Of a DNA stretch of 64,000 nucleotides, positions 27,001-30,000 are shown piece by piece. A program made the position numbers. Origin of the DNA: an uncultured Bacilli bacterium (lineage in GTDB: Bacteria > Bacillota_I > Bacilli_A > RF39 > UBA660); contig CAKONZ010000007.1 in the NCBI GenBank assembly GCA_934098525.1, positions 11,871-75,870 on the forward strand, read 5' to 3'. How positions within the stretch are numbered: position 1 is the stretch's first letter; each line of letters opens with the position of its first letter.

Positions 27001-30000
27001 AAACTCAATTAAGGGCTACACTAGCTAAATTTTTCTTTAATGGTGAGAACGTTTTTAAAACAATTAATAAACTGTCCGGGGGAGAAAAAGTAAGATTAAA
27101 ATTAGCTGAATTAATTCAAAAAGATATTAATTTTTTAATATTAGATGAACCTACAAATCATATTGATATTGACACTAGAGAGATGCTTGAATCTGCGTTG
27201 ATTGATTTTGAGGGAACTATATTATTTGTATCTCATGACAGATATTTTGTAAATAAACTTTCTGAAAAAATTATTGAAATTAAGGATGGAAAAACAACTT
27301 CATATTTAGGAAACTATGATTACTATTATGAAAAAAAAAATAACGAAGGTTTAAGTCAACATCTTTTAAAACGTTAAAACAATTATTTAAAATAATGTTT
27401 TGAACAAACAATTCTAAAAAAAGTAGCATTAAAAGTTATTGCTATTTTTATATCATTTGGTAAAATGAATATAGTGATTGATATAAATCAATCGTCTTTA
27501 TGCGAAAGAGTTGTAAACCACTTCGTCGTATGCACCAGACTAATTGATACTCGAACTAAAAACTACTCTCAAATCAAATTGAAAGTAGTTTTATTTTGTC
27601 AATTTAGAAACACACATGCAAATTGACATAATCAATTAGCATGTGGAGTTACATTTAGTAATTCAACTTTAAATAAGTTGTGAATAATTAATAATTATAT
27701 ATATAGATGGGATACTTGTGAAGGAATAACGATGTGTTGGCAACGCCAGTAAGCATACTTTGTATGTGAGCATTCATCTTACCTGGGGTACCCATCATTT
27801 TTTTATGCATTTATTAGAAGATTGACATTTAAAAAATATAGTGTATAATATCAAGTAAGTGAGGAGATATAAATAATTATTTGTGAGCTATCTCGGGTAT
27901 TAGCCTACACGAACTTTCAAAAGTACGGAGTCACTAATTAGTGATTTGCCGTACTTTTTTCTATCTTTAAACGGTAATTCACAAGAAAAGATAGGAAGTG
28001 ATTGATTTGAATATTATTGAAGTAAAAAATCTTTCAAAGAATTATAAATATAAAGTTAAAAACGAAGAAAAAGGTTTTTTATATAATTTATTTAATGAAC
28101 AAGAAAAAGTTGTAGAAGCAGTTAATAATATTTCTTTTTGTGTTGAAGAAGGAGAAACAGTTGCATTTATTGGACCAAATGGTGCTGGTAAATCAACTAC
28201 TATAAAAATGTTAACAGGCATTCTATATCCAACAAAAGGTGATATTAAGATATGCGGTTTAACTCCAATTAAAGATAGAAACAAACTTGCTTTTAAGATT
28301 GGTACTGTATTTGGTCAAAGAAGTCAATTATTGCCAAATTTACCATTAACAGAAAGCATGGAAATGTTTGGTGCAATGTATGATATGGATAAAGTTGCAA
28401 TAAAGAAGAGAATAAATGAATTATCAGAATTATTTGATTTGAAAGAATTTATTAAGCAACCAGTTAGAAAACTTTCTTTAGGTCAAAGAATGAGGGCAGA
28501 AATTGCAACATCCTTAATACATAGTCCTAAAATTATATTTTTAGACGAGCCAACAATTGGACTTGATGTTGTTTCTAAAAAAAGTTTAAGGGATTTGCTT
28601 TTAAAAATTAATAAAGAAGAAAAAGTAACTATATTTCTGACTAGTCATGATACTGAAGATATTCAAAGTATTTGTGATAGATGCGTAATTATAAATCATG
28701 GAAAAATAATTATTGATACTTCGACAAAGCAATTAATAAGTGATTATGTTAAAAATAAAAATATAATTATAACTCCAAATGTAGAGTTTGTAGAATTTCC
28801 TGAATTATCAGATGGTATGACATATATTAAGAAAAGTAAAAATCAAGTAATAGTTGGAGTTGATACTAAAAAAATACATACTCAAAAAGCCTTGCAAGAG
28901 TTAATAAAAGTTTTTGATATTGATGATGTTAATATAGATAATGAATCTCTTGAAAACATTATAAGGAGTATTTATGAAAAAAATTAAGTTTGCTTTTATT
29001 GTTATAAAAATCTTTATGAAAAACCAAATGCAAGATAGAACAAACTTAATATTAGATGTCTTCAATATGGTATCAAGATGCTTAATTGTGTTCTTACTAT
29101 ATGCTTATATATTTAAGTTGCAAGGTGGGAGTATTAATGGAGTAGATTACAAAACAACAATGTGGAGTATGTTTATTTATTTTTGCATTATGATTTTGAA
29201 TATTAGGAGATTAGATAATATTATAATGACAGAAGTTAAAAGTGGAAATGTTGAAATGTTTATGAATAAACCTACAAATTATTTAACAATTAGTTTTATG
29301 AGAGTAATCGGTCAAGGTATATTTTCATTCTTATTCATAAGTATATTAGGATCTATAATTATGACATTATCTGTAGGTGTTCCTGATTTAAATTTGCCTA
29401 TTTTTATACCTACATTTATAATTACATTATTTCTAGGTCAAATACTAGGCTTATTAATATATGGAATAATAGGACTTATGGCATTTTTTATGCAAGATAT
29501 ACGACCAATACATTGGATAGTAGATAAATTTGTAATGATACTTGGTGGAAGTTATTTACCAATATCGATGTTTCCAAATTTTATGAAAATAATTGCTTAT
29601 GCAAGTCCATTTGGTGCGATTAACTTTGCTTCAAGTACCGTGTATGATTCTTGGAATAATGAGTTTATTATGAGAATTGCATTACAATTGTTATGGATAG
29701 GTATATTTAGTATATTGATGCACTATGTATATAAAAAATCAAAAGAAAAGGCAATGATAAATGGAGGTTAATTATGGGAAGTATTAAATTAGCTTTATTA
29801 AATATAAAGAAAAACTTTAAAAATGAAAAAGAATTAAAAAGTTCCTTCATTATTTCAGTTGTAGGTATGGTAATAAATAATATATCATTTTTAATATTAT
29901 GGTATTATTTTGGTAAAACAATAGGAGAATTAAATGGATGGAAACCAATGGATATTTTTGGTTTATATGGTTTTGGTACTACTTCGTATGGAATTGTTAC

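What the first reader, a model, noticed from the sequence alone, without database searches (positions are those of the whole stretch)
27378..27997. 620-bp structured non-coding region with stacked regulatory elements and a promoter–attenuator leader controlling an ABC-2 exporter
In a genome where most intergenic gaps are under 100 bp, this gap contains the following elements in order:
- a terminator for the ABC-F gene;
- a promoter-like site (TTGCTA–16–TAAAAT, ~27432–27460);
- the repeat-element copy 1 ending in a 9-bp-stem hairpin (27559–27594);
- a palindromic operator-like site GTCAATTT…AAATTGAC (27597–27626);
- a long hairpin plus T-run (~27712–27808);
- a near-consensus promoter TTGACA–16–TGTATAAT (27822–27849);
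- a ~75-nt leader with GGAGG and no canonical start codon;
- a strong intrinsic terminator (27922–27961) only 36 nt before the transporter gene.

This implies regulated read-through (attenuation). That is typical of inducible antibiotic-resistance exporters, where induction is by ribosome stalling or an RNA-binding effector.
Basis: seen in the sequence. Interest (0 to 1): 0.6.

Follow-up and report, generated by a model that had tools for sequence, protein, structure and literature searches.

The report
Orphan riboswitch-like leader before ABC exporter
The last 150 bases of this gap hold a promoter, a conserved four-helix RNA fold and an overlapping terminator. This fold recurs more than 100 times, often in tandem, in gut and rumen bacteria and matches no Rfam family, so it looks like an undescribed riboswitch-type ON switch; the rest of the gap is recombination debris.

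Summary
They are not one stacked control region.

**Functional part (27822-27960).**
- A perfect sigma-70 promoter lies at 27822-27849.
- An 81-nt structured RNA (27857-27937) starts about at the transcription start.
- An intrinsic terminator (27919-27958 plus U6) has a 5' arm that reuses the 3' strands of two helices of that RNA.

**Comparative evidence.**
- The RNA is a conserved motif: GUGA-G-[P2]-UAA-[hairpin]-GAGC-[P2']-GGG-[P3]-CCUACAC-[P4]-GGAG-UCAC.
- I found 25 copies in related genomes and 103 in metagenome contigs.
- About 96% of pair cells are standard pairs, and 17 of 22 pairs show compensatory changes.
- Tandem units occur in 17 of 91 loci.
- Downstream lie the same ABC-2 exporter (57% of copies) or GNAT acetyltransferases (30%).
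- No Rfam 15 family matches it, and it is not the guanidine-IV or Gd4v motif.
- No leader peptide is conserved.

**Best reading.** This is an orphan riboswitch-type transcriptional ON switch with an unknown ligand.

**Upstream part (27378-27820).** This is a mosaic:
- the right end of an 11.3-kb island inserted at tRNA-Leu;
- a duplicated copy of the operon's 3' flank;
- species-specific hairpins.

The parts
27822..27849 (+). Sigma-70-type promoter TTGACA-16-TATAAT. The predicted start is about 27856, 1-3 nt before the RNA motif.
   Evidence: It matches 12 of 12 positions. The same promoter is seen in L010, L015, L024 and L031. In 68 of 117 distinct upstream regions a promoter's -10 ends 6-11 nt before the motif.
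27857..27937 (+). Conserved four-way-junction RNA, the putative aptamer.
- P1: 27859-27862 with 27931-27934
- P2: 27864-27869 with 27889-27894
- Internal loop: UAA (27870-27872) opposite GAGC (27885-27888)
- P2a: 27873-27876 with 27881-27884
- P3: 27895-27897 with 27904-27906
- J3/4: ACA(C), 27907-27910
- P4: 27910-27914 with 27923-27927
- J4/1: GAG, 27928-27930
   Evidence: The CM hit scores 89.9 bits, E 3e-25. RNAalifold finds P1, P2, P2a and P3 on its own. The single-sequence MFE gives the same fold.
27919..27960 (+). Intrinsic terminator that acts as the expression platform. Its 5' arm (27919-27935) contains the P4 3' strand, GGAG and the P1 3' strand. The 3' arm is 27940-27958 and the U6 run is 27955-27960.
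   Evidence: -18.5 kcal/mol, z -6.6. In the full leader the MFE forms the terminator and loses P1 and P4. The same overlap was scored in 99 of 117 distinct copies.
27961..28009 (+). Spacer, SD-like GGAAGTGAT (27994-28002) and TTG start (28007). The CUAUCUUU/AAAGAUAG hairpin (27958-27998) is probably a by-product of a deletion of 'gene X'.
   Evidence: L010 carries gene X after the same leader, with the junction at the repeated AAAGA(A/T)AGGAAGTGA.
28007..30565 (+). The controlled operon: a DrrA-like ABC ATPase (28007-28987) and two ABC-2 permeases (28974-29771; 29774-30565, PF06182).
   Evidence: The same three-gene operon follows 57% of motif copies that have a callable downstream chain.
27706..27804 (+). 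Long imperfect hairpin plus T7, directly upstream of the promoter. It is probably an insulating terminator, or the 3' end of a small transcript. It is not part of the conserved motif.
   Evidence: z -1.2. It is found only in same-species contigs, in all three contexts of the cassette. L006 has a 12-nt insertion creating TGTTATAAT just upstream. The Rfam DABA-DC-AT hit of 13 bits, E 2.5, is not significant.
27558..27675 (.). Segment with hairpins at 27559-27592 and 27613-27646. It is present in the window and in L005 and absent in L006. On the minus strand it could be a ~130-nt small RNA (promoter 27722->27694, terminator hairpin plus U5).
   Evidence: the minus-strand fold has z -6.5. There is no Rfam hit on either strand.
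27378..27557 (+). Right end of the tRNA-Leu island, plus a duplicate of the ABC operon's 3' flank. It ends in the 26-nt core GCACCAGACTAATTGATACTCGAACT, which imitates the tRNA 3' end and its flank.

Best explanation
The working unit is 27822-27960: a promoter, an ~80-nt four-way-junction RNA at the very 5' end of the transcript, and an intrinsic terminator. The RNA belongs to a widespread sequence-and-structure family that I could not find in Rfam or in the papers searched.

The 3' strands of helices P4 and P1, and the conserved GGAG between them, are also the 5' arm of the terminator. The two folds therefore exclude each other.
- **Default state (inferred):** the terminator wins and transcription stops before the ABC-2 exporter genes.
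- **Induced state (inferred):** a ligand stabilises the junction, P1 and P4 hold the terminator's 5' arm, and polymerase reads into the operon. That makes it an ON switch.

**Shown here:**
- the promoter;
- the fold and its covariation;
- the overlap of fold and terminator;
- recurrence of the motif before the same exporter and before GNAT acetyltransferases;
- tandem units.

**Inferred:** that the effector is a small molecule, and the direction of switching.

**Ligand:** unknown. The two leads are a stress alarmone such as (p)ppGpp and a toxic or xenobiotic compound. The (p)ppGpp lead rests on published ppGpp riboswitches that precede natA-type ATPase + COG3694 + COG4587 ABC operons; whether this window's operon is that type rests on memory only. 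The xenobiotic lead rests on the co-regulated genes, which are an exporter, acetyl-, methyl- and nucleotidyl-transferases, a P-loop kinase and an MccF-like peptidase.
For: **Promoter.**
- 12 of 12 match at 27822-27849.
- In 68 of 117 distinct upstream regions a promoter's -10 ends 6-11 nt before the motif.

**Conserved motif.**
- It was seen by eye upstream of ATPase orthologues of 59-98% identity.
- 18-sequence alignment: 95% of pair cells form standard pairs, 14 of 22 pairs have double changes, and 0 of 500 shuffles reach the score.
- RNAalifold finds P1, P2, P2a and P3 independently.
- CM search: 25 hits in genome loci, including a divergent copy in L032 (20 bits, E 0.007).
- On those hits 95.9% of pair cells are paired and 17 of 22 pairs have double changes. 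P1 includes A-U and C-G variants. By eye, L101 reads ACGA/UCGU and L032 reads UUAAGA/UCUUAA.
- The window's aptamer folds into the same junction on its own.

**Terminator overlap.**
- It was scored in 99 of 117 copies by a simple script.
- In the window the full-leader MFE forms the terminator and loses P1 and P4.

**Arrangement and gene context.**
- Tandem complete units occur in 17 of 91 loci.
- Downstream chains hold the ABC ATPase in 64 of 112 copies, a GNAT in 34 of 112, and an unknown 'gene X' in 17 of 112.

**Controls and exclusions.**
- Ten pattern matches in viral contigs gave 0 CM hits.
- No Rfam family matches, at E <= 10 on the window and E <= 5 on 12 diverse examples.
Against: - No ligand is known and no binding can be tested here.
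- P1 is only 4 bp and nearly invariant, so its covariation rests on a few sequences.
- The metagenome alignment was fitted to the model, which favours the structure.
- All genomic representatives are uncultured MAGs, and no transcript data exist.
- An RNA-binding protein recognising the junction would give the same comparative signal.
- In close relatives (L010, L012, L017) the leader controls 'gene X', and the ABC operon has its own promoter. The direct leader-exporter fusion in this window is therefore a recent deletion, although it is the common arrangement elsewhere.
Confidence: 0.72

Rival explanations
1. The conserved fold is the binding site of a trans-acting protein, or of another RNA, that antiterminates in the manner of LicT/RAT or PyrR. 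It would not be a small-molecule aptamer.
For: Comparative data cannot tell a protein ligand from a small one. Many operons start with an uncharacterised small protein, 'gene X', that could be a regulator.
Against: - About 25 invariant nucleotides are concentrated in the junctions of a compact four-way junction.
- Tandem complete units are frequent.
- The motif occurs across GC 0.31-0.56 in varied genomes.
- No candidate protein is constantly linked; gene X is present in only 15% of chains.
Confidence: 0.15
2. It is a leader-peptide attenuator induced by ribosome stalling, as for erm, cat or ABC-F resistance genes.
For: The leader contains GAGGAG, and the target is an exporter next to an ABC-F gene.
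Against: - The GGAG lies in P2, which covaries to GUGUGU, GUAUGU or GAGAAC.
- No start codon with an SD is conserved.
- The only invariant GUG sits 2-3 nt from the transcript's 5' end, and the reading frames that follow it differ in length.
- The compensatory changes are RNA-level constraints.
Confidence: 0.03
3. The whole 620 bp is one multi-layer control region, in which the ABC-F terminator, a second promoter, an operator palindrome and an upstream attenuator all act on the exporter.
For: All of these sequence features exist, and several hairpins fold better than shuffles.
Against: - Sister contigs keep the promoter, leader and operon but replace 27378-27557 (L005) or 27378-27675 (L006) with tRNA genes.
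- More distant relatives have coding sequence right up to the promoter.
- The 9-of-12 promoter match and the long hairpin are at chance level.
Confidence: 0.05
4. The structured 5' UTR has no switching function, for example a stabilising 5' fold plus a leaky terminator.
For: No expression data exist.
Against: - The aptamer and terminator strands overlap precisely in most copies.
- Junction nucleotides are invariant.
- Tandem arrangement is frequent.
- The motif is consistently associated with a narrow set of genes.
Confidence: 0.05

Closest known systems
ppGpp riboswitch (ykkC subtype 2a; Sherlock et al. 2018, PMC6003355)
   Same: It is a transcription-terminator riboswitch in Firmicutes. The paper reports 12 representatives upstream of operons with a natA-like ATPase plus COG3694 and COG4587 permeases of unknown function. 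From memory, the PF06182 permeases of this window belong to those COGs, so the target operon type appears to be the same.
   Different: The RNA is unrelated. No ykkC-clan Rfam hit appears in the window or in 12 other examples. This motif is a ~75-nt four-way junction. It is not associated with branched-chain amino-acid or glutamate synthase genes.
Guanidine-IV (mepA motif) and its orphan variant Gd4v (Lenkeit et al. 2022, PMC9788692)
   Same: [quoted passage not shown] They are associated with GNAT acetyltransferases and exporters. Gd4v is enriched in gut metagenomes and its ligand is unknown.
   Different: - Their architecture is two hairpins joined by a kissing pseudoknot, with conserved CGCCGG and UUAGGCC cores.
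- The present motif has neither core and has four helices around a junction.
- Their gene sets differ: a transaminase in over 50% of Gd4v cases, and MATE or SugE exporters.
Toxic-ligand ON riboswitches that control exporters (fluoride crcB, guanidine-I/II/III, Li+/Na+ classes)
   Same: The logic is the same: the aptamer competes with a terminator and the downstream gene is an exporter or detoxifying enzyme (established knowledge; design shown).
   Different: There is no sequence or structure match to any of their Rfam models.
Leader-peptide attenuators of inducible resistance genes (ermC, cat, vga/msr ABC-F leaders)
   Same: A terminator lies between the promoter and a resistance-type gene, and read-through is regulated.
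   Different: There is no conserved leader ORF. The conserved features are base-paired helices with compensatory changes.

Membership tests
Riboswitch / cis-regulatory leader RNA (general kind) | A conserved secondary structure supported by compensatory base changes | tested here: met
   95-96% of pair cells are paired. 14 of 22 pairs (18 sequences) and 17 of 22 pairs (98 distinct sequences) have double changes. 0 of 500 shuffles reach the score. RNAalifold agrees.
Riboswitch / cis-regulatory leader RNA (general kind) | Location in the 5' UTR, same strand, directly after a promoter | tested here: met
   The window promoter lies at 27822-27849 and the motif starts at 27857. In 68 of 117 upstream regions the -10 ends 6-11 nt before the motif.
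Riboswitch / cis-regulatory leader RNA (general kind) | An expression platform whose fold excludes the aptamer fold | tested here: met
   The terminator's 5' arm is the P4 3' strand, GGAG and the P1 3' strand, in the window and in 99 of 117 copies.
Riboswitch / cis-regulatory leader RNA (general kind) | Recurrent association with a coherent set of genes across lineages | tested here: met
   The ABC-2 exporter operon follows 64 of 112 copies and a GNAT follows 34 of 112. Motif GC ranges from 0.31 to 0.56.
Riboswitch / cis-regulatory leader RNA (general kind) | Direct, selective binding of a small-molecule ligand | not testable with these tools
   This needs in-line probing, ITC or transcription assays.
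Any Rfam 15 family | A covariance-model match at or near the family's gathering score | tested here: not met
   No hit at gathering score in the gap. With E <= 10 on the window and E <= 5 on other examples, only chance hits of 8-15 bits fell on the terminator or on the upstream hairpin.
Guanidine-IV / Gd4v | Two hairpins linked by a loop-loop pseudoknot, with conserved CGCCGG and UUAGGCC sequences | tested here: not met
   I compared the motif by eye with the published Stockholm alignment and description. Neither core is present, and the helix topology differs.
ykkC subtype 2a (ppGpp) riboswitch | The ykkC-type fold, detectable with the Rfam ykkC-clan models | tested here: not met
   No ykkC-clan hit appears. 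Only the target operon type appears to be shared.
Leader-peptide (ribosome-stalling) attenuator | A conserved short ORF with SD and start codon upstream of the terminator | tested here: not met
   No conserved start with an SD. The GGAG is a covarying stem strand. The motif begins at the transcript's 5' end.
Intrinsic (Rho-independent) terminator | A stable hairpin immediately followed by a U-run | tested here: met
   27919-27958, -18.5 kcal/mol, z -6.6, with U6 at 27955-27960. The simple scan missed it, probably because the stem has an internal loop that the scan's pairing rules do not allow.
tRNA-targeted genomic island (for 16196-27531, whose right end forms the left part of the gap) | An intact tRNA at one end, a repeat of the tRNA 3' end at the other, and absence from a sister strain | tested here: met
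   tRNA-Leu(CAA) lies at 16109-16195. GCACCA plus flank recurs at 27532-27557. In L005 tRNA-Leu is joined directly to the sequence that follows 27537.
tRNA-targeted genomic island (for 16196-27531) | An integrase or recombinase gene | tested here: not met
   Pfam finds DUF6271, PALP, an aminotransferase, a decarboxylase, an arginase-fold protein, a methyltransferase and ABC-F. No integrase was found.

The most novel reading that the evidence does not exclude
This leader is one representative of an undescribed riboswitch class, abundant in uncultured gut and rumen Bacillota. Its ligand would be new to riboswitch biology: an exogenous toxic natural product or antibiotic-like compound. Alternatively the ligand is a stress alarmone read by a second, unrelated fold. 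In either case the RNA would directly switch on a detoxification regulon of an ABC-2 exporter, RimJ/RimL-type acetyltransferases, a P-loop kinase, nucleotidyl- and methyl-transferases and an MccF-like peptidase.
Probability: 0.2. Interest if true: 0.85.

Novelty: new variant of a known kind. Interest (0 to 1): 0.66.

Why it matters
Orphan riboswitch classes have repeatedly exposed unknown metabolites, signals and transporters; fluoride, guanidine, ppGpp and Li+/Na+ are examples.

**What this motif offers:**
- It has well over 100 representatives.
- Covariation support is clear.
- Tandem units are frequent.
- Its target set is narrow and resistance-like.
- Every genome copy found here is from an uncultured MAG, and its ABC-2 transporter family has no assigned function.

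**What finding the ligand would do:**
- It would assign a function to that transporter and to the associated GNATs.
- It could reveal a compound that matters in gut and rumen ecosystems.

**For the scan itself:**
- A long 'regulatory' gap can be mostly recombination scars, with one compact functional unit at its 3' end.

Tried and rejected
- **Rfam.** I searched at gathering score and with permissive E-value thresholds on the whole window, on the gap, on the 116-nt leader and on 12 diverse examples. Nothing matched. The DABA-DC-AT hit (13 bits, E 2.5) over 27618-27797 and the JA03 and xrRNA hits on the terminator are chance-level.
- **Other riboswitches before related ABC operons.** Rfam at gathering score on 34 further ATPase-homologue loci found none; the only riboswitch hit, a c-di-GMP-II aptamer in L053, lies downstream of the ATPase match.
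- **Gd4v / guanidine-IV identity.** Rejected after reading the paper and its alignment.
- **Literature.** Seven searches found no description of this motif. The NAR 2024 survey of 50 genomes has no matching candidate.
- **Leader peptide.** Rejected, because the relevant bases covary and no ORF is conserved.
- **Phage origin.** Ten pattern matches in viral contigs were all rejected by the CM. The 27706-27796 element has no match in viral contigs.
- **27706-27804 as a decayed motif copy.** The CM with filters off gives at most 3.6 bits there. A 6.8-bit match at 27583-27655 is too weak to claim.
- **Associated proteins.** Pfam, NCBIfam and PDB searches gave no specific function for 'gene X', the GNATs or the AAA_33 kinase.
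- I did not run the large protein searches or structure prediction, because they would not decide the RNA question.
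Full report
**What is in the gap.**
- The window has about 22% G+C. It matches human-gut metagenome contigs from uncultured Bacilli; the closest named assemblies are 'Clostridium sp. 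CAG:710' and 'Acholeplasma sp. CAG:878'.
- The gap runs from the stop of a ribosomal-protection-like ABC-F gene (25728-27377) to a three-gene ABC-2 exporter operon. The operon is a DrrA-like ATPase from TTG 28007 plus two permeases, the second of family PF06182.
- Their statistical weight differs:
  - the 12-of-12 promoter (27822-27849) and the terminator (27919-27958 plus U6, z -6.6) are strong;
  - the 9-of-12 'promoter' at 27439-27466 and the long hairpin at 27706-27796 (z -1.2) are at chance level.

**The gap is a mosaic.** Three sister contigs carry the identical exporter operon in different contexts.
- **L005.** ScpA, ScpB and an intact tRNA-Leu(CAA) are joined directly to the sequence that follows 27537 in the window.
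- **L006.** A tRNA-Thr abuts the sequence that starts at about 27676.
- **The window.** The same ScpA-ScpB-tRNA-Leu lies at 14798-16195.

Several things follow from this comparison.
- 16196-27531 is therefore an 11.3-kb insertion at the tRNA's 3' end. Its right end repeats GCACCA plus the downstream flank.
- The insertion carries DUF6271, two unknown proteins, a PALP enzyme, an aminotransferase, an Orn/DAP/Arg-type decarboxylase, an arginase-fold protein, a methyltransferase and the ABC-F gene.
- The 'repeat element' (27497-27557 versus 30612-30672) is a duplicate of the operon's own 3' flank. The same flank follows the operon in L010-L013.
- Only 27676-27997 travels with the operon, and more distant relatives keep only the promoter and the leader.

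**The leader is a conserved structured RNA.**
- Upstream regions of ATPase orthologues of 59-98% identity share the motif AAGUGAG-[5-6 nt]-AUAA-[variable hairpin]-GAGC-[complement]-GGG-[hairpin]-CCUACAC-[hairpin]-GGAGUCAC, followed by a hairpin and a U-run.
- An 18-sequence alignment gives a four-way junction of P1, P2/P2a, P3 and P4.
  - 95% of pair cells are standard pairs.
  - 14 of 22 pairs have double changes.
  - Sliding the 3' partners by 1-3 columns drops pairing to 27-43%.
- RNAalifold finds P1, P2, P2a and P3 without guidance.
- A covariance model finds one copy in the window (27857-27937, 89.9 bits) and 24 more in related loci. One of these is a divergent copy in L032 at 20 bits. 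The model finds none upstream of distant Clostridium or Paenibacillus ABC homologues.
The model found 103 matches, all E < 2e-11, in the 80 loci it returned.
  - 95.9% of pair cells are paired, and 17 of 22 pairs have double changes.
  - P1 has rare A-U and C-G variants. By eye, L101 reads ACGA/UCGU and L032 reads UUAAGA/UCUUAA.
- As a control, ten matches of the same pattern in viral contigs were all rejected by the model.
- The window sequence alone folds into the same junction.

**How it most likely works.**
- The motif starts at the transcript's 5' end. In 68 of 117 distinct upstream regions a sigma-70-type promoter's -10 ends 6-11 nt before it.
- The P4 3' strand, the invariant GGAG and the P1 3' strand together form the 5' arm of the terminator.
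  - This holds in the window.
  - It also holds in at least 99 of 117 copies by a crude script; most of the misses are cases where the script took an internal T-run as the terminator's end.
- The junction and the terminator therefore exclude each other.
  - The full-length leader's MFE forms the terminator.
  - Stabilising the junction should thus give read-through, which makes this an ON switch.
- Complete tandem units occur in 17 of 91 loci. A further 15 loci carry several copies before successive genes of one cluster.
- No leader peptide is conserved, and the GGAG that looks like an SD is a covarying stem strand.
- The fold, the overlap and the gene association are shown. The nature of the effector and the direction of switching are inferred.

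**Gene context and ligand leads.**
- Of 112 copies with a callable downstream chain, 64 include the ABC ATPase, usually as ATPase-permease-permease.
- 34 include a GNAT, often of the Acetyltransf_3 (RimJ/RimL) type.
- 17 start with an uncharacterised 'gene X'.
- Occasional partners are an AAA_33 P-loop kinase, an S66 (MccF-like) peptidase, methyl- and nucleotidyl-transferases, a NUDIX protein and alpha/beta hydrolases.
- This set looks like a detoxification or resistance set.
- Separately, Sherlock et al. 2018 report ppGpp riboswitches upstream of natA-like ATPase + COG3694 + COG4587 ABC operons of unknown function. From memory, PF06182 permeases belong to those COGs, which makes (p)ppGpp a testable candidate.
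- Neither lead is more than a hypothesis.

**Comparison with known families.**
- No Rfam 15 family matches the motif.
- The orphan Gd4v motif and guanidine-IV share the ON-terminator logic, the GNAT association and the gut enrichment. Their two-hairpin kissing architecture and their CGCCGG and UUAGGCC cores are absent here.
- Seven full-text searches and the 2024 survey of 50 genomes gave no description of this motif.
- I therefore rate it as a new class within the known kind 'riboswitch-type leader'. Unpublished or paywalled descriptions cannot be excluded.

**Local history.**
- In L010, L012 and L017 (ATPase 86-98% identical) the same promoter and leader precede 'gene X'. The ABC operon follows a terminator and has its own promoter.
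- The window lacks gene X. The junction lies in the repeated AAAGA(A/T)AGGAAGTGA ribosome-binding regions.
- A deletion therefore fused the leader directly to the exporter.
- That fused arrangement is the commonest one elsewhere.

**What remains unexplained.**
- The 27706-27804 element (hairpin plus T7) is conserved only within the species. It may insulate the switch from the tRNA genes upstream, or it may be a small RNA: L006 has an insertion creating TGTTATAAT just before it.
- The minus strand of 27560-27690 folds unusually well (z -6.5) between a TTCACA-17-TATAAT promoter and a hairpin plus U5.
- Neither element has an Rfam match.

Noticed in passing
window 16196-27531 (tRNA-Leu at 16109-16195; right end at 27532-27557): An 11.3-kb insertion at the 3' end of tRNA-Leu(CAA), absent from sister contig L005. 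Its genes look like a small-molecule biosynthetic cluster (DUF6271, two unknowns, PALP, aminotransferase, Orn/DAP/Arg decarboxylase, arginase-fold, methyltransferase). The cluster ends with a ribosomal-protection-type ABC-F, a possible self-resistance gene. No integrase was found.
   Followed up: partly
window 27532-27557 and 30647-30672; L006 90-163: The exporter cassette is flanked by identical 26-nt copies of a tRNA-3'-end-like core. In another strain it sits directly after tRNA-Thr. Relatives have it near tRNA or tmRNA genes (L014, L022, L025). The cassette seems to move between tRNA-proximal sites.
   Followed up: partly
window ~27985-28003 versus L010 860-1466: The window lacks the ~150-aa 'gene X' that lies between the same leader and the ABC operon in L010, L012 and L017. 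The deletion junction falls in two near-identical ribosome-binding regions, AAAGA(A/T)AGGAAGTGA.
   Followed up: yes
gene X family, e.g. L010:899-1360, L020:2266-3264, L134:2113-2766: A protein family with no Pfam domain is always the first gene after the motif (17 cases). It has two modules: a C-terminal CPTLG...LKPRF...YSxDMAYLYGF module and an N-terminal LGYPMxxxGTYLYKDVI module. By eye the second resembles the Spo0A C-terminal DNA-binding region. Its function is unknown.
   Followed up: partly
window 27690->27553, minus strand: A candidate ~130-nt minus-strand small RNA. It has a TTCACA-17-TATAAT promoter (27722->27694), a fold z-score of -6.5, and ends in a hairpin (27592-27559) plus U5. 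It is seen only in same-species contigs.
   Followed up: partly
window 27583-27655: A weak resemblance (6.8 bits, E 0.09 in a 479-nt search) to the 3' half of the motif: ACAC-[hairpin]-GGAGUUAC. It may be a decayed upstream copy, but the score is too weak to claim.
   Followed up: partly
window 27618-27797: A sub-threshold Rfam match to the DABA-DC-AT motif (13 bits against a gathering score of 56; E 2.5). An aminotransferase and a decarboxylase lie 4-6 kb upstream. However, the element travels with the exporter cassette and not with those genes, so this is probably coincidence.
   Followed up: partly
window 51935-52133 and 51427-51503: A T-box leader (98.8 bits) lies about 430 nt downstream of a tRNA-Glu(CTC) gene.
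   Followed up: no
window 13646-13680, 14741-14775, 30791-30825, 40810-40863, 44333-44372, 51350-51403, 58206-58245: A recurrent ATATGTTATAAT(T) box before genes. It is likely the organism's typical extended -10 (TGnTATAAT) promoter form. The riboswitch promoter instead uses a full -35/-10 pair.
   Followed up: no
L016 3689-3920, L090, L092, L106, L114, L119, L129, L133 and others: Tandem motif units, each with its own terminator, lie 36-87 nt apart before one operon. The two units of a pair often differ in the P4 and terminator design: ACACG...CGGAG versus ACACAAU...AUUGGAG.
   Followed up: partly
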